Of a stretch of DNA of 64,000 nucleotides, positions 12,128-43,875 are shown piece by piece (the stretch's first letter is position 1; each line of letters begins with the position of its first letter). The translations under genes and the position numbers were made by a program. Origin of the DNA: Escherichia coli (GTDB taxonomy: Bacteria > Pseudomonadota > Gammaproteobacteria > Enterobacterales > Enterobacteriaceae). The stretch lies in assembly GCF_030013205.1 (NCBI RefSeq), contig NZ_CP122648.1; one strand, 5' to 3'. The notes under the pieces were generated by a model that saw nothing but the letters and a program-made list of their open reading frames with translations, made no database searches and was not told the origin of the DNA.

Positions 12128-12582
12128 TGTTTTGGGTTTTAACTGTTCCGCGTGCGCTTAGCCGCATTCACCGCATCACAAAATTCACTTTAAAAATGGC
12201 GGCAGAGCAGTCACGGAGTAAAACTGATACCGCCAAACGTCACCAGAAAATTGATAACAGAGGGCGTTGCAGCGGGGTTGTCACTTAAGCGTATGGTCAA
12301 CCTGACAACCCGGTGTCCTCAACGGGGAAGGAATAACCTCGCCATACTTACCGCCGCGCCATTTCGCGGAGTGCCACAACCGGAAGCGCACGGTCGACGA
12401 AAATTTAACGACAGGCTATCTATGAACCAGCTACCTCGCCGTGCGCTTTCGCGTTATGGTCTGACTTTTCAGGGAAATATCCTTTCAGTAAACTGTCAGT
12501 GCCGGATGTTCACCCGTGTCCGGCGCACGCACTCCACCTCACCCGTGGAGAACTCCTTAATTACCAACCCTCAGGAGGGTGA

Positions 12583-13982: not shown

Positions 13983-14021
13983 TTTTGCGGTGTCTTAACT
14001 GGTGACTAGTTGTTTGGTGAG

Positions 14022-14441
14022 CTATGATGCGTTTTGTGCTTTCTTTTTACGGATTTCTTCGTAGATCATATTGTAATACTGTTTTTTCTCTTCAAGAGTT
14101 TTTAATAAGTTATCCGCTTCACTTTCTGGCAGTTCGTCTAAGAGATCTAAAAAAATACGTTGTCGTGGCGTTAGAACCCTTGTTTCATAACTGGAGGCTG
14201 TGTTCGTTGATGATGAAACGATACCATCCATCCATCCCCGGGGTAACCCAAAGGACTCTTCGATAATCTCCACCATATCATCAGCGATCCGTTTTTTTCC
14301 CTTTTTCCCCTCTGGGTACAACATTCTTGATACATAAGAAGGCTCGCGCCCGATCTTTCTGGCCACGTTAACCGCTTTACCATCGCATTTCTCATCACGA
14401 ATTTTGATGAGTTGCTGTCGTCTAAATTCATATTTGTCCAT
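14022..14441 (-). CDS. prophage repressor (HTH, CI/RacR-like)
   Basis: 139-aa ORF with an N-terminal helix-turn-helix (KAVNVARKIGREPSYVSRML); flanked by operator palindromes and divergent from a cro-like gene. Confidence 0.6.
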   Translation of the reverse strand: MDKYEFRRQQLIKIRDEKCDGKAVNVARKIGREPSYVSRMLYPEGKKGKKRIADDMVEIIEESFGLPRGWMDGIVSSSTNTASSYETRVLTPRQRIFLDLLDELPESEADNLLKTLEEKKQYYNMIYEEIRKKKAQNAS

Positions 14442-14475
14442 AGGTAAATAATAGATGCGATTACCGCAAGGTAAA

Positions 14476-14516
14476 CAACCTGTGGGTATTGACTTTTGTT
14501 TACCTGTGGGTATTCT
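14476..14516 (+). promoter_or_regulatory. right operator/promoter region
   Basis: Two copies of acctgtgggtat (14478-14489, 14502-14513), the reverse complement of the left-operator half-site family; a TTGACT -35-like hexamer lies between them. Confidence 0.5.
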
Positions 14517-14541
14517 TTACTGTGTTTACTAAGGAGTAGCT

Positions 14542-14823
14542 ATGGAAGAATTAAGAATATTTCTCAATTCTCTTTCGTCAGATGAACAGCGTATGTTTGC
14601 ATGCGAGTGTGGTACCAGCATCGGTTATCTAAGAAAGGCATTGAGTAAAGGTCAAGTGTTAGGGGCATCGTTATGCGTCCTTATTGAGCGAGCCAGTAAT
14701 GGTGAAGTTACACGTCAGCAACTAAGGCCTTTTGATTGGATGAATATTTGGCCCGAGCTGGAAGATACCAAAACGTTAACACAACCACTTTCTAGGAGCT
14801 TGATTCATGAAAATCAAGCATGA
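14542..14823 (+). CDS. Cro/YdaS-family HTH protein
   Basis: 93-aa ORF divergent from the repressor; segment GTSIGYLRKALSKGQV...QQLRPFDW resembles YdaS/Cro-type regulators. Confidence 0.55.
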   Translation: MEELRIFLNSLSSDEQRMFACECGTSIGYLRKALSKGQVLGASLCVLIERASNGEVTRQQLRPFDWMNIWPELEDTKTLTQPLSRSLIHENQA

Positions 14824-15232
14824 ACACATCCGCATGGCGATGAATGCCTGGGCGCATCCGGACGGTGAAAAAGTTCCGGCAGCTGAAATAACCAGGGCTT
14901 ATTTTGAACTGGGTATGACGTTCCCAGAACTGTATGACGACAGCCATCCGGAAGCCCTGGCTCGCAATACCCAGAAAATTTTCCGCTGGGTAGAGAAAGA
15001 CACCCCTGATGCAGTTGAAAAAATTCAGGCGTTGTTACCAGCGATCGAAAAGGCAATGCCACCTTTGCTGGTGGCCAGAATGCGCAGCCACAGTTCAGCT
15101 TATTTTCGGGAGCTGGTGGAGACGCGGGAGCGACTGGTGAGAGACGCTGATGATTTTGTCGCAGTGGCAATCGCCGGTTTCAATCAGATGAACCGTGGTG
15201 GCCCGGCAGGAAATGCTGTGGCAGTACATTGA
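14807..15232 (+). CDS. YdaT-like protein
   Basis: 141-aa ORF overlapping the cro-like gene by 17 nt; position equivalent to ydaT/cII in Rac-type prophages. Confidence 0.45.
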   Translation: MKIKHEHIRMAMNAWAHPDGEKVPAAEITRAYFELGMTFPELYDDSHPEALARNTQKIFRWVEKDTPDAVEKIQALLPAIEKAMPPLLVARMRSHSSAYFRELVETRERLVRDADDFVAVAIAGFNQMNRGGPAGNAVAVH

Positions 15233-15297
15233 CTGACAATAGCCATATCGAATCGCTTCCGGCAACTCGTGAGTAAAAAGATTCGGTATCAGAAGAG

Positions 15298-16374
15298 GTG
15301 AGTATGGCTAACGCCTGGCTCAGATTATGGCATGACATGCCAAATGACCCTAAGTGGCGAACAATTGCCAGGGTGTCAGGGCAGCCAATTGCAACAGTGA
15401 TGGCAGTGTATATCCACCTCCTGGTGAGCGCGTCACGAAATGTCACGCGAGGTCACATTGATGTCACGACAGAAGATTTGGCAAGTGCGCTCGACGTGAC
15501 AGAAGAGGTAATTGATTCAATTTTGCAGACGATGCAGGGGCGGGTACTTGATGGTGATTTAATCACTGGATGGGAAAAACGCCAGGTGCTTAAAGAGGAC
15601 AACGGCAATATTTCGCAAACCGCAAAATCTCCTGCAGAGCGCAAGAGGGCGCAGCGAGAGAGGGAAAGAAAGCGGGAACAAAATGGCGATTGTCACGGCG
15701 CGTCACGAAATGTCACGCACATGTCACGACGAGTCACGACAGATAAAGATACAGATAAAGATACAGATCAAGAAGATCAAAACACTATGGTCCATGGCGT
15801 AAAAAACGCCACGAACCGGGCAGGGGATGTTCAGACCGTCAATCTTGGTCAGCCAGCAGGCACGACACCGGAAGCCGATTCAGCGTATGCGCTGAAAGCC
15901 GATTCGGGCGCTGTGCAGCAGGTGATGACCGCAAGGCTGGAGCAATCACACCAACTGCAGCAGCCCGAAGCCGATTCCGCCATTCAGCGGGAAGCCGATC
16001 GGGTAGTCCCGGAAAACACCGGGCAGTCTGTGGGACGAGTGGATTATCCGGATGTGTTCGAACAGGTCTGGCGGGAGTACCCGTTGCGTGCCGGAGCAAA
16101 CCCGAAGAAATCCGCTTTCAGTGCCTGGAAGGCCAGATTACGCGAGGGGGTGCCACCAGAGGCCATGCTGGATGGCGTGAGGCGTTACGCAAGATACTTG
16201 GCGGCTACCGGGAAAACGGGAACGGAATTTGTTCAGCGAGCGACGACGTTTTTTGGACCGGACCGGAATTTTGAGAACCCCTGGTTGCTCCCGGTAAGCG
16301 GCACGAACAACCAGCGTTGTGTGAATCATATTTCTGAACCGGATAACGAAATTCCGCCGGGCTTCAGGGGGTAA
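15298..16374 (+). CDS. phage replication initiation protein (O-like), origin embedded in the gene
   Basis: 358-aa ORF in the replication position; two clusters of 10-bp-phased GTCACG iterons lie inside the coding sequence. Confidence 0.5.
   Translation: MSMANAWLRLWHDMPNDPKWRTIARVSGQPIATVMAVYIHLLVSASRNVTRGHIDVTTEDLASALDVTEEVIDSILQTMQGRVLDGDLITGWEKRQVLKEDNGNISQTAKSPAERKRAQRERERKREQNGDCHGASRNVTHMSRRVTTDKDTDKDTDQEDQNTMVHGVKNATNRAGDVQTVNLGQPAGTTPEADSAYALKADSGAVQQVMTARLEQSHQLQQPEADSAIQREADRVVPENTGQSVGRVDYPDVFEQVWREYPLRAGANPKKSAFSAWKARLREGVPPEAMLDGVRRYARYLAATGKTGTEFVQRATTFFGPDRNFENPWLLPVSGTNNQRCVNHISEPDNEIPPGFRG
15431..15780 (+). repeat. iteron-like origin repeats followed by an A/T-rich repeat tract
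   Basis: GTCACG at 15432, 15442, 15463 (variant gtcaca at 15452) and at 15692, 15702, 15712, 15723, 15733; followed by agataaagatacagataaagatacagat. Confidence 0.5.
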
Positions 16375-16414
16375 GTGTTAATTTCTGGTCATGAGGTAAT
16401 TTTCAGGAGGGCTT

Positions 16415-16837
16415 GTGGCAAAAGTTTTTACACAAGAAGAGCGGGAAAAAATTAAAGGACAGGTTGTTGAACTCGTACGCCAGAGTGGGCGTGAGACGTT
16501 ACGGCAACTGGAAGTCAAGACAGGTGCGACAAGATATCTGATGAGCGTTCTCGCAAGAGAGCTGGTTGCCAGCGGCGATGTATACAACTCTGGTTACGGG
16601 TTATTCCCGTCTGAACAGGCGCGTAAGGACTGGCAAAATGCCCGTAAAAAGCTCTCAAGGGCAAAGCTGAAGAAACCATCTGCGGTTGATCCGGACCTTA
16701 TCTGGTCATTACCTGACGGAGAAATACGTCGCTACGACAGGCGTCAGAACATAATCTGTCGCGAGTGCCGGAAGAGTGAAGTTATGCAGCGCATATTGTC
16801 GTTTTATCAGGGTGATGTTCGGTATTTATTGAAGTGA
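16415..16837 (+). CDS. hypothetical protein (140 aa) in the replication module
   Basis: ORF track; follows the replication gene; possible HTH segment. Confidence 0.4.
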   Translation: MAKVFTQEEREKIKGQVVELVRQSGRETLRQLEVKTGATRYLMSVLARELVASGDVYNSGYGLFPSEQARKDWQNARKKLSRAKLKKPSAVDPDLIWSLPDGEIRRYDRRQNIICRECRKSEVMQRILSFYQGDVRYLLK

Positions 16838-16983
16838 CGAGATTAAAGTGCATTAGTTCAGATGCAAATTGACATTTTGTGGCACAGGGTAGAGCTAGCG
16901 TGGTTGTCCGCTTTGTGCCAACAGCGGACATTATAGATGGTATATGTAGAAAGTGAACATGCGTAGATTGTATGATTTAGCCG

Positions 16984-17793
16984 TCACTTAATTATTGGAT
17001 AACTCACACAAGTATGACCGTTGCTTATCGCATACATTTGGTTTCCCTTAAGATTTACAAATGGAAATGTCGTATACTCATAATTTATAGAGGTCATATT
17101 AAATGTAAGGAATTTATCTTCAAGTTCTAATTTTGTAGAGTGGGCAGGGTATGTTCCTTCATTTTTCATTGTGATAATAAAACCGATAGGAAAAAAATGT
17201 AAAGCACAAATAAATGCCACATGTCCTTCGTTCATAAATGCTACACTTTGAGCGGATATGTGCATTCTGTGTGGGTAAAACCAGTAGTAAATATCATGAG
17301 TTTCCTCAAAACTTGAATTTTTACCCAAAACATAATCCTTTAAAGGTGTATAGAAGGGGCTATCTACGGGTTCTTTTTTACAATCTTCAACTGAAGTTGC
17401 TGATAGCACGTGCCCAATCATAGCCTTAGTGAAAGATATGCTATCAAAAGGTATTCTAATGAATGGATATACATTCATACCATTCATATATCGACTTAAC
17501 TGTTCTTTAAAGGACTTTGTTACATTTTCAATTGCAACATCGAGCCCACCTAATACCTTATTGTTACAGTGGCTGCAAATGGTTCTGAAATAAGAGCCAT
17601 TTTTAGCATTTAATGGTTTAACTGGTTCCTGAATACCAAAAAATTCGCTAACTGTTTTCTGCAAAACAGGGCCTAAGGTTATGGCGCACTTTGGAGGAAC
17701 ATGATCTTTTGTGAGCAAGCCATATTTCCCACAAATATTGCAATAACCTTCAGTAATGCCATTGTGCTTCCATCGTTCACTAATTTTCGTCAT
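16984..17793 (-). CDS. HNH (His-Me finger) nuclease-domain protein with an uncharacterised C-terminal domain
   Basis: 269-aa ORF; CxxC (18/21), DH-x-P (30-33), CxxC-N (73-77); GAGGG SD; AT-rich and antisense to the flanking rightward genes. Confidence 0.6.
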   Translation of the reverse strand: MTKISERWKHNGITEGYCNICGKYGLLTKDHVPPKCAITLGPVLQKTVSEFFGIQEPVKPLNAKNGSYFRTICSHCNNKVLGGLDVAIENVTKSFKEQLSRYMNGMNVYPFIRIPFDSISFTKAMIGHVLSATSVEDCKKEPVDSPFYTPLKDYVLGKNSSFEETHDIYYWFYPHRMHISAQSVAFMNEGHVAFICALHFFPIGFIITMKNEGTYPAHSTKLELEDKFLTFNMTSINYEYTTFPFVNLKGNQMYAISNGHTCVSYPIIK

Positions 17794-35158: not shown

Positions 35159-35842
35159 TATGTATTCCCTTGTGATTATAATCTTCATGAATATATCAAT
35201 AAGTGCCGTTATCCAAAAAAAAGCACATTTGGATACTATTCTATGAAGTTCATTTTATTTTAAAGATTACATGCAACAAATATATTTAAAAGATTTCAAA
35301 ATGTTTCTAATCTATTTAATATAATTCGGAATTATGAATTCTAAATATAAATATTCATGAAAATTATAAATGTATATCAATATGTTATGAGTTGAGCGGA
35401 AACATAGGGGGTATCAATGATTGTTGCGCCAAACGGCTGGTGTGATCACGCGCACATTAATGAAGGCATAAAAAAAGCCGGCATCATGCCGGCCCAAAAA
35501 AATAAACAAGACGATAAAAGGCTAATAACGGAAGCATCATGACACAGAATAATAAAAAGGTATAATTGTAATCAGTGCTAATATATTGATTGAATGAATT
35601 AATAAAGCCGATATCAAAGATAAATAAAATCGCTCAAAACGATTTTTCCTGTATTCACTGCCGTTGCGCAAAAATTATCTATTTGTTCAAAAAATGATTG
35701 AGTCTTGACTGGCTCATCCAATGTGGAAAAATGTGACTTTTATCACATAATAGTACTAAGTCTGAATTTTCCGGGTTATCTCAAAATGGAATACGGTTCG
35801 ACAAAGATGGAAGAGAGACTCTCTCGCAGCCCTGGCGGCTAA

Positions 35843-43606: not shown

Positions 43607-43787
43607 TTACCAGGATGATTCTCAAAACAGCACAAATTATCAAAGATGATTTTTTCGGGAGCGATCCCGTTGACGCCAGAGCCACCAAGGGGTGACGCGC
43701 GTCACATTTCTATTCATAAGTAGCGTTAATCATTCATATCACGAATATTTTCTTGTCAGCGAAAAAAATTGCGGATAAGGTGATGAG

Positions 43788-43875
43788 CACATCAGATTTC
43801 CTGGTGTAACGAATTTTTTAAGTGCTTCTTGCTTAAGCAAGTTTCATCCCGACCCCCTCAGAGTCGGGATTTTTT
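43788..43875 (+). ncRNA. dsrA: DsrA small regulatory RNA
   Basis: ...acatcagatttcctggtgtaacgaattttttaagtgcttcttgcttaagcaagtttcatcccgaccccctcagagtcgggattttttt, matching DsrA including its terminator. Confidence 0.85.

What the first reader, a model, noticed from the sequence alone, without database searches (positions are those of the whole stretch)
15431..15780. Replication origin-like iterons embedded in the replication gene
Two clusters of GTCACG motifs are phased at about 10 bp (15432/15442/15452/15463 and 15692/15702/15712/15723/15733) and are followed by the repeat tract agataaagatacagataaagatacagat and A/T-rich sequence. All of it lies inside the 358-aa ORF, where it encodes a low-complexity linker (SRNVT...VTTDKDTDKDTDQEDQ). 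This mirrors the lambda ori-within-O arrangement.
Basis: partly seen in the sequence, partly recalled or inferred. Interest (0 to 1): 0.4.

Follow-up and report, generated by a model that had tools for sequence, protein, structure and literature searches.

The report
Phage replication origin inside initiator gene
The phased GTCACG repeats are real, are conserved at the DNA level across many bacteria, and most likely form the prophage's replication origin inside its own initiator gene, as in phage lambda, though no experiment has yet shown origin activity.

Summary
Eight exact GTCACG and one GTCACA sit in two clusters, 15432-15468 and 15692-15738, spaced 10-11 bp. They lie inside a 356-aa prophage gene (15304-16374, phrog_3729 "replication initiation protein").

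The motif occupies all three reading frames. Synonymous resampling of the gene gives a mean of 0.7 copies, against 8 observed. So codon repeats do not explain it.

Cluster 2 is followed directly by the least stable duplex in the gene (15739-15790, 69% AT, 54% A) and then a short inverted repeat.

Of 60 homologous genes from Proteobacteria and their phages, 55 carry the phased cluster 2, 47 carry cluster 1, and most carry the A-rich tract. The repeat core changes with the clade of the N-terminal domain (GTCACG, GAACGC, GCAACG, GTGACG). Synonymous sites inside the repeats are frozen: 92% majority codon against 53% outside, P = 5e-8.

The N-domain models as a winged helix closest to the DnaD N-terminal domain.

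Best reading: an iteron-type origin embedded in its initiator gene. It is analogous to lambda ori-in-O, but the protein is not in the O family. The origin is bipartite and has short direct repeats. No paper I could search describes it. Origin activity is inferred, not shown.

The parts
15304..16374 (+). Replication initiator gene ('phage replisome organizer'), 356 aa. It has an N-terminal winged-helix domain (about aa 1-95), a basic helix (aa 110-132), a low-complexity linker, and a C-terminal helical domain with a DnaT-like tail.
15430..15470 (+). Iteron cluster 1: four direct repeats (GcGTCACGaa, atGTCACGcg, agGTCACAtt, atGTCACGac) starting at 15432, 15442, 15452 and 15463. They encode residues 43-56 (ASRNVTRGHIDVTT).
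   Evidence: The same positions are occupied in 47 of 60 homologues. Codons in these columns are nearly invariant across 21 species. Variants carry +21 nt, which adds 2 repeats and 7 aa.
15495..15500 (-). Single inverted copy of the core (GTCACG on the minus strand), 27 bp after cluster 1.
   Evidence: The Val codon GTG at 15496 is used in 95% of 21 species, so GTGAC is kept. GTGAC sits at the same relative position (nt 193 of the gene) in most members of the GTCACG clade.
15690..15740 (+). Iteron cluster 2: five direct repeats starting at 15692, 15702, 15712, 15723 and 15733, in the interdomain linker (CHGASRNVTHMSRRVTT).
   Evidence: A phased cluster occupies this position in 55 of 60 homologues. 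The repeats are invariant in the E. coli, Aeromonas and Pseudomonas alignment.
15739..15790 (.). A-rich tract, the candidate DNA-unwinding element. It contains (ACAGATAAAGAT) x2.5 and two GATC sites (15766 and 15775). It is 69% A+T, with 54% A on the + strand.
   Evidence: The least stable 30- and 50-bp duplex windows of the gene start at 15741 and 15738 and rank in the top ~1% of the 64-kb window. In 48 of 58 loci the 50 nt after cluster 2 exceed the locus A+T by more than 10 points, with AGATAA, AGATAC or AGAGAA hexamer repeats even in hosts of 60-69% GC.
15789..15817 (.). Imperfect inverted repeat GGTCCATGGCGT-AAAAA-ACGCCACGAACC just after the A-rich tract. The perfect core is TGGCGTAAAAAACGCCA at 15795-15811.
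   Evidence: pair I17; 6-bp perfect stem, P = 0.025 against shuffles; on the minus strand it looks like a terminator. A comparable hairpin reaches P <= 0.05 in 18 of 58 homologous loci.
16300..16371 (+). C-terminal 24 residues (GTNNQRCVNHISEPDNEIPPGFRG), resembling the C-terminus of E. coli DnaT (SEPDNHIPPGFRG).
   Evidence: PDB 6aep 'Primosomal protein 1', E 0.003, and 9zbt DnaT. NCBIfam DnaT model, E 7e-4, matching the tail only. I, P, G and F of the tail are invariant in 17 homologues.
14489..14516 (+). Candidate rightward early promoter (TTGACT-16-TATTCT) upstream of the cro-like, cII-like and initiator genes. Transcription from it would pass through the repeats.
   Evidence: Consensus match only.

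Best explanation
The region 15430-15817 is the replication origin of a lambdoid E. coli prophage, and it lies inside the gene for the origin's own initiator.

Proposed mechanism:
1. After derepression, rightward transcription from the immunity region expresses the 356-aa protein.
2. Its N-terminal winged-helix domain binds the GTCACG repeats. These are direct repeats spaced one helical turn apart, so the monomers line up head-to-tail on one face of the DNA.
3. Cluster 2 (five repeats) abuts an A-rich, easily melted tract, which opens.
4. Cluster 1 (four repeats plus one inverted copy, 260 bp upstream) acts as an auxiliary site. It either helps build a larger looped complex or serves in autoregulation.
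5. The C-terminal domain, with its DnaT-like tail, brings in the host helicase machinery. This phage has no helicase or loader gene next to the initiator.

Shown here: the repeats, their DNA-level constraint, the unstable A-rich tract, family-wide conservation of the layout, and co-variation of the repeat core with the initiator clade.

Inferred: protein binding, melting, helicase recruitment and origin firing.
For: Gene identity and context:
- The gene is phrog_3729 'replication initiation protein'. It lies after DicA/CI-like, Cro/YdaS-like and CII/YdaT-like genes.

The repeats are a DNA-level feature:
- The motif sits in three reading frames at 10-11 bp spacing. There are 8 copies, against 0.71 expected from synonymous resampling.
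- In 21 species the majority codon is used 92% of the time in repeat columns and 53% elsewhere (Mann-Whitney P = 5e-8).

The A-rich tract:
- The least stable duplex of the gene starts at the last repeat.
- An A-rich hexamer-repeat tract follows cluster 2 in 48 of 58 loci, including hosts with 60-69% GC.

Family-wide conservation:
- Of 60 homologous genes, 55 have a phased cluster 2 and 47 have cluster 1. Spacing peaks at 10 bp.
- The repeat core follows the N-domain clade (GTCACG, GAACGC, GCAACG, GTGACG) on a tree built with the repeat-encoded loop masked.
- The N-domain plus repeats travel together while the C-domains and downstream genes are swapped: DnaC-like loader, primase-helicase, DnaB, replication protein P, or none.
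- Cluster 1 grows by two repeats (21 nt, 7 aa) in some variants. Extra iterons in Stx phages likewise lengthen the O protein (PMC7466680).

Protein fold:

Layout compared with lambda:
- Iterons followed by an AT-rich tract inside the initiator gene matches ori-lambda (PMC3349717, PMC7466680).
Against: - There is no experimental evidence of binding, unwinding or autonomous replication for any member of this family, and I found no paper on it.
- The A-rich tract is only about 50 bp. It also encodes a plausible acidic/basic linker (DKDTDKDT), so part of its composition could reflect the protein.
- The Pfam Phage_rep_org_N match is below threshold, at 15.6-16.4 bits against a cut-off of 23.3.
- Five of 60 homologues show no clear phased repeats.
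- The role of cluster 1 is unknown.
Confidence: 0.8

Rival explanations
1. The repeats are binding sites for the same protein, but they serve autoregulation or copy control (a roadblock or handcuffing operator inside the gene). Replication would start elsewhere in the phage genome.
For: Cluster 1 has no adjacent AT-rich tract and lies early in the gene, where bound protein could block transcription of its own gene. Initiators commonly autoregulate through iterons (general knowledge of iteron plasmids). The two clusters, 260 bp apart, could loop.
Against: Cluster 2 is always joined to an A-rich, low-stability tract, the standard origin layout. No other GTCACG cluster exists in the 64-kb window. 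The homologous phage loci inspected showed no other repeat-rich site near the replication genes.
Confidence: 0.08
2. The repeats are a by-product of low-complexity coding sequence, generated by slippage as amino-acid repeats in a flexible loop and linker, with no function at the DNA level.
For: Both clusters lie in a loop or linker, where the protein tolerates variation. Repeat numbers vary between variants. The following tract encodes DKDT repeats.
Against: The motif is read in all three frames, and the 10-11 bp spacing is not a multiple of 3. Synonymous resampling never reached the observed count. Synonymous positions are frozen across 21 species. The layout is kept in 55 of 60 genes while the core changes by clade.
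Confidence: 0.02
3. The repeats are recognised by another factor, or they act in RNA. Candidates are a host protein, the neighbouring CII/YdaT-like or DUF977 protein, or an mRNA element. Alternatively, the A-tract plus hairpin is a leftward (antisense) intrinsic terminator.
For: On the minus strand the hairpin 15817-15789 followed by a T-rich run scores as terminator-like. Similar hairpins follow the A-tract in about a third of homologues. No binding data exist.
Against: The repeat core tracks the initiator N-domain clade across hosts: GTCACG occurs in Enterobacterales, Pseudomonas, Bordetella, Chromobacterium and Aeromonas. Meanwhile the neighbouring genes differ. No Rfam family matches the region. 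The T-run after the hairpin is interrupted (ATAGTGTTTT), and the hairpin is missing in most loci.
Confidence: 0.05

Closest known systems
Phage lambda ori within gene O (lambdoid O/P replication module)
   Same: The origin lies inside the initiator gene and is transcribed from the early rightward operon after cro and cII. A set of initiator-binding repeats is followed directly by an AT-rich tract at the junction between an N-terminal DNA-binding part and a C-terminal part (PMC3349717, PMC7466680). The N-domain plus repeats behave as one specificity module joined to exchangeable C-domains. Extra repeats lengthen the protein, as in Stx phages (PMC7466680).
   Different: There is no sequence membership in Phage_rep_O. 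The repeats have a 6-bp core, are direct, and are spaced 10-11 bp, whereas lambda has four 18-bp iterons (PMC3349717). There are two clusters 260 bp apart, one of them inside the coding region of the DNA-binding domain. In this phage no P-like loader gene follows; the next gene is DUF977.
Replisome organizers of Gram-positive phages (Pfam PF09681 Phage_rep_org_N, e.g. SPP1 G38P with oriL inside gene 38) and DnaD-like proteins
   Same: NCBI names this protein 'phage replisome organizer'. It gives a full-length but sub-threshold match to PF09681. The N-domain fold is closest to the DnaD N-terminal winged helix. The C-domain's best, weak, match is a DnaD-like C-domain. From my own knowledge, not checked here: SPP1 G38P binds repeats inside its own gene next to an AT-rich region.
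   Different: Sequence similarity is below Pfam's cut-off, and only 3 of 62 family members reach E < 0.01. The hosts are Proteobacteria. The C-terminal tail resembles E. coli DnaT. I did not compare the repeat architecture with SPP1 or lactococcal origins.
Iteron-containing plasmid origins (Rep-iteron systems)
   Same: There are direct repeats in phase with the helical repeat, a cognate winged-helix initiator encoded in cis, an adjacent AT-rich unwinding region, and repeat sequence that co-varies with the initiator.
   Different: Plasmid iterons are typically about 17-22 bp and lie outside the rep gene (about 20 bp in PMC2647930). Here the units are about 10 bp and lie wholly within the coding sequence. 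No DnaA box lies in or next to the repeats.
E. coli DnaT (primosomal protein I)
   Same: The last 13-24 residues are nearly identical to the DnaT C-terminus. Some database entries call the phage gene 'primosomal protein I'.
   Different: Only the tail matches: 19 bits against a 201-bit cut-off. The rest of the protein is unrelated in sequence. The DnaT C-domain fold was not recovered.

Membership tests
Lambda O family (Pfam Phage_rep_O) | Sequence match of the N-terminal domain to the Phage_rep_O profile | tested here: not met
   Phage_rep_O did not appear among the Pfam matches of aa 1-159 listed up to E = 10. Only Phage_rep_org_N and HTH_Crp_2 appeared, both weakly.
Lambda O family (Pfam Phage_rep_O) | Origin (repeats plus AT-rich tract) located inside the initiator gene | tested here: met
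   Repeats at 15432-15738 and an A-rich tract at 15739-15790, inside ORF 15304-16374. This shows the layout only; activity was not tested.
Lambda O family (Pfam Phage_rep_O) | Four or more iterons of about 18 bp | tested here: not met
   The units are about 10 bp with a 6-bp core, all direct. Lambda's iterons are 18 bp (PMC3349717).
Lambda O family (Pfam Phage_rep_O) | Partner helicase-loader gene (P) immediately downstream | tested here: not met
   The next gene, 16415-16837, is DUF977 / Ren-like. Relatives with other C-domains do have P, DnaC-like or DnaB genes.
Phage replisome organizer, N-terminal domain (PF09681) | Profile match above Pfam's gathering score | tested here: not met
   15.6-16.4 bits against a cut-off of 23.3, although the alignment spans profile positions 1-119 of 121. 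Only 3 of 62 family members reach E < 0.01.
Phage replisome organizer, N-terminal domain (PF09681) | DnaD-like winged-helix fold of the N-domain | tested here: inconclusive
Iteron-type replication origin (functional class) | Three or more direct repeats phased with the helical repeat | tested here: met
   4 + 5 repeats at 10-11 bp. Across the family the spacing mode is 10 bp.
Iteron-type replication origin (functional class) | Adjacent AT-rich region of low duplex stability | tested here: met
   The least stable 30-50 bp window of the gene starts at 15738-15741 and ranks in the top ~1% of the window. The tract is conserved in 48 of 58 loci.
Iteron-type replication origin (functional class) | Repeat sequence co-varies with the cognate initiator | tested here: met
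   Clade-specific cores on a tree built without the repeat-encoded loop.
Iteron-type replication origin (functional class) | Initiator binds the repeats, and the fragment replicates autonomously | not testable with these tools
   This needs EMSA or footprinting and a plasmid replication assay. The only hint is two 50.9-kb circular P. aeruginosa records that carry the module and have no replicon type listed.
DnaT (primosomal protein I) | Full-length match to the DnaT equivalog model | tested here: not met
   19.4 bits against a cut-off of 201. Only residues 333-356 align.

The most novel reading that the evidence does not exclude
Cluster 1 may be more than an accessory binding site. The loop it encodes (residues 44-55, RNVTRGHIDVT) is the part of the N-domain that differs most consistently between clades with different repeat cores. 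The one column that passed a strict discrimination test, residue 48, lies inside it. If this loop takes part in recognising the repeats, then the DNA encoding the recognition element would itself be the recognised site. A single mutation would then change protein and target together, giving a built-in route to new origin specificities.
Probability: 0.07. Interest if true: 0.75.

Novelty: new member of a known kind. Interest (0 to 1): 0.4.

Why it matters
This initiator is one of the common replication modules of E. coli prophages. Its 90%-identity cluster holds 5786 sequences, and the 3-kb region is present in 415 of 5426 complete genomes. NCBI's pipeline often labels the gene "hypothetical protein".

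Placing the origin has several practical uses:
- It gives a concrete target for studying or blocking prophage induction. This includes the Stx-phage relatives of the Eru4 type, which share the C-terminal half (PMC8951638).
- It gives a handle for building phage-derived replicons.
- It offers a simple rule (two phased clusters, then an A-rich tract) for finding origins in related phages of Pseudomonas, Bordetella, Burkholderia, Serratia and others.

The family is also a natural series of initiator and repeat specificities: GTCACG, GAACGC, GCAACG and GTGACG.

Tried and rejected
- Eru papers on Stx phages. Eru1-3 are different proteins. Eru4 (Shigella phage 75/02) shares only the C-terminal half. 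Neither paper discusses origins.
- First scan of viral contigs with the N-domain alignment. It returned 80 near-identical E. coli copies and so gave no diversity. The genome-contig scan solved this.
- Pfam and NCBIfam. No family is above threshold for this protein.
- DnaA boxes. There are none in or next to the repeats. The nearest, at 16426, lies in the next gene and the count is at chance level.
- Literature searches for these iterons. Nothing relevant turned up. The Pf-5 paper concerns an unrelated genomic island.
- Plasmid search. The hits are large plasmids or chromosome-sized records, plus two 50.9-kb circular P. aeruginosa elements that look like phage genomes. This gives only weak support for autonomous replication.
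- Strict search for protein columns outside the repeat-encoded loop that discriminate GTCACG from GAACGC clades. None passed. Positions 65-69, at the start of the putative recognition helix, differ only as a tendency.

Full report
**What is in the sequence**

The window is E. coli chromosome carrying a lambdoid prophage; positions 14000-17000 are 100% identical to strain K_EC180. The finding lies in the early rightward operon. The gene order is:
- a DicA/CI-like repressor, 14022-14441 on the minus strand;
- a Cro/YdaS-like gene, 14542-14823;
- a CII/YdaT-like gene, 14807-15232;
- the ORF in question, 15298-16374;
- a DUF977/Ren-like gene, 16415-16837.

The likely start of the ORF is the ATG at 15304, preceded by GAGGTGA. 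That gives 356 aa, the same length as the database representative P0001 (99% identical over the full length), which stands for 5786 sequences and is named "phage replisome organizer". PHROGs places the protein in phrog_3729, "replication initiation protein", over its whole length (E 1e-256). Seven sequenced coliphages, including Tritos, Evi and vB_EcoS-689R5, carry the gene at 98-99% identity. They annotate it variously as replication protein O, primosomal protein I or replisome organiser.

**Checking the observation**

Exact GTCACG occurs on the + strand at 15432, 15442, 15463, 15692, 15702, 15712, 15723 and 15733. Position 15452 is GTCACA. One inverted copy lies at 15495-15500. That is 9 of the 36 sites in the window (both strands) within 307 bp, where shuffles predict about 0.13. 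Spacing is 10/10/11 and 10/10/11/10 bp, one helical turn.

This can be rejected on three grounds.
- The motif is read in all three frames, giving ASR, VT, GH, CH and MSR.
- The spacing is not a multiple of three.
- In 20,000 synonymous resamplings of the same protein, using codon usage from this window, the mean was 0.71 GTCACG and the maximum 6, against 8 observed.

The tract ACAGATAAAGATACAGATAAAGATACAGATCAAGAAGATCAAAAC begins at 15739, directly after the last repeat. The stretch 15739-15790 is 69% A+T with 54% A on the top strand. The least stable 30- and 50-bp duplex windows of the whole gene start at 15741 and 15738, and they fall in the top ~1% of the 64-kb window. An imperfect inverted repeat follows at 15789-15817.

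One detail of the finding needs correcting. Cluster 2 does encode part of the interdomain linker. Cluster 1, however, encodes residues 43-56, the end of a helix and a loop inside the folded N-terminal domain.

**Comparative evidence**

The N-terminal 130 residues have relatives in phages of Aeromonas, Pseudomonas, Ralstonia and Microcystis. They also occur in prophages of 63 species-level genomes across Proteobacteria.

In every relative with at least 66% identity, GTCAC(G) occupies the same two positions in the gene, nt ~129-160 and ~389-430. This holds even though host G+C ranges from 48% to 69%. A DNA alignment of the E. coli, Aeromonas and Pseudomonas genes shows the repeats and AGATAAAGATA invariant, while the wobble positions around them vary.

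Across 21 species I looked at columns with a conserved amino acid. Inside the repeats these columns use the majority codon 92% of the time; elsewhere in the N-domain the figure is 53% (Mann-Whitney P = 5e-8). The Val codon at 15496 is GTG in 95% of the species, which preserves the inverted GTGAC.

More distant clades keep the architecture but change the core to (C)GAACGC, GCAACG or GTGACG. These cores group by protein clade on a neighbour-joining tree built with the repeat-encoded loop removed.

Of 60 non-redundant full-length genes, 55 have a phased cluster 2, 47 have a phased cluster 1 and 46 have both. Spacings peak sharply at 10 bp: 203 cases, against 50 at 11, 13 at 9 and 8 at 12.

In 48 of 58 loci the 50 nt after cluster 2 are more than 10 points richer in A+T than the locus as a whole (mean 61% against 43%). 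These tracts are built from AGATAA, AGATAC or AGAGAA hexamers. A short hairpin follows in about a third of loci; 18 of 58 reach P <= 0.05.

Cluster 2 plus the A-rich tract is therefore the near-universal core. Cluster 1 is common but dispensable.

**Modularity**

The N-domain and its repeats travel as one unit while the rest of the module changes.
- The Aeromonas phage has a different C-domain and a DnaC-like loader.
- The Pseudomonas phages have a primase-helicase.
- The Ralstonia phage has a DnaB.
- Other E. coli prophages join the same N-domain to a PF17948 (DnaT DNA-binding) C-domain, followed by replication protein P or an ATP-binding loader.

Variants in E. albertii, Morganella and E. 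coli carry an extra 21 nt in cluster 1. That adds two repeats and seven residues. Extra iterons in Stx phages lengthen the O protein in the same way (PMC7466680).

A rare E. coli allele, P0019, has lost cluster 2 and the A-tract by an in-frame deletion. It is a natural candidate for an origin-less prophage.

**The protein**

An AlphaFold model of residues 1-135 (pLDDT 82.7) shows helices 16-25, 29-45, 56-63 and 67-77 followed by a beta wing, then a long basic helix 110-132.

The last 24 residues resemble the C-terminus of E. coli DnaT, with ...SEPDNEIPPGFRG against ...SEPDNHIPPGFRG, and the tail is conserved among homologues. DnaT is thought to recruit DnaB/DnaC during replication restart, though the mechanism is unknown (PMC13377028).

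**Most likely mechanism**

The initiator's winged-helix domain binds the direct repeats head-to-tail along one face of the DNA. Occupancy of cluster 2 strains and opens the neighbouring A-rich tract. Cluster 1, 260 bp away, either joins a larger looped complex or gives feedback on the gene's own transcription. The C-domain and its DnaT-like tail then bring in the host helicase, since this phage has no loader gene beside the initiator. Transcription from the candidate early promoter at 14489-14516 runs through the site, as in lambda (consensus match only).

The sequence-level statements are shown. Binding, melting, helicase recruitment and firing are inferred.

**Rivals**

- A purely regulatory role for the repeats is not excluded for cluster 1. 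It fits poorly for cluster 2, which is joined to the A-rich tract.
- Slippage-born coding repeats are contradicted.
- Recognition by a host or neighbouring protein is unlikely. The core follows the initiator clade across hosts, while the neighbouring genes differ.
- On the minus strand, the hairpin plus T-rich run resembles a terminator. The run is interrupted, however, and the hairpin is absent from most loci.

**Comparison and novelty**

In function and layout this is the lambda solution: an origin inside the initiator gene, with repeats followed by an AT-rich tract at a domain junction (PMC3349717, PMC7466680).

In fold and naming the protein is closer to the DnaD-like replisome organizers of Gram-positive phages. 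It fails the sequence membership tests for both Pfam families.

It differs from lambda in three ways: the short direct repeats one helical turn apart, the second cluster inside the DNA-binding-domain coding region, and the DnaT-like tail.

I found no paper describing this origin. The searchable library omits much of the older phage literature, so prior description cannot be excluded.

I rate it a new member of a known kind. It is solid and useful, but not surprising to a specialist.

Noticed in passing
window 16300-16371 (aa 333-356): The C-terminal tail of the phage initiator (SEPDNEIPPGFRG) is almost identical to the C-terminus of host DnaT (SEPDNHIPPGFRG). No helicase or loader gene follows the initiator. 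This suggests the phage mimics DnaT to capture host primosome or helicase components.
   Followed up: partly
window 15789-15817 (read on the minus strand, 15817-15789): The inverted repeat after the A-rich tract, read on the minus strand, looks like an intrinsic terminator (12-pair stem, then ATAGTGTTTT). GC-rich hairpins of the CCCCCC...GGGGGG type follow the A-tract in about a third of homologous loci. The function is unknown; it could be an antisense terminator, or a hairpin that forms once the origin is single-stranded.
   Followed up: partly
P0019 (E. coli allele, 302 aa; corresponds to a deletion of about window 15705-15866): A natural in-frame deletion allele lacks most of cluster 2, the A-rich tract and the hairpin. 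It is seen on 4 contigs and is a candidate origin-less, replication-defective prophage.
   Followed up: no
L087 (E. albertii), L105 (Morganella), P0003/P0022/P0057/P0101 (E. coli); L146/L148 (Pseudomonas): Cluster 1 expands in units of two repeats (21 nt, 7 aa such as TCHGVSL). The Pseudomonas PA15 and flavescens genes carry 8 GTGACG repeats there, translated as a long insertion in the loop. The loop peptide therefore looks like a passive read-out of the repeats in three frames.
   Followed up: partly
window 12197-12248 (-), and upstream of it: A DicF sRNA gene lies in the prophage early-left region (Rfam 73 bits). Phage Tritos annotates dicB and ydfD next to its DicF, so this is a Qin/DicF-type immunity region.
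   Followed up: no
window 22037-22343 (+); also 5845-5917 (-) and 6909-6995 (+): Three tandem tRNA genes lie within what is probably the prophage late-regulation region. Two further tRNA genes lie near the left end of the window.
   Followed up: no
window 35470-35558 (-) and 43786-43872 (+): The chromosomal sRNA genes rseX and DsrA are present, so the right part of the window is probably host chromosome outside the prophage.
   Followed up: no
window 16984-17793 (-): A 269-aa ORF on the opposite strand, just after the DUF977 gene, has CxxC...CxxC motifs. Phage Tritos has a different, 444-aa hypothetical gene at this position. It is probably a moron or defence-type insertion.
   Followed up: no
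L149 (CP137943.1) and CP124671.1: Two 50.9-kb circular P. aeruginosa records deposited as plasmids carry the GTCACG-type initiator together with a DnaB-like primase-helicase, and no replicon type is listed for them. They look like circular phage genomes or phage-plasmids.
   Followed up: partly
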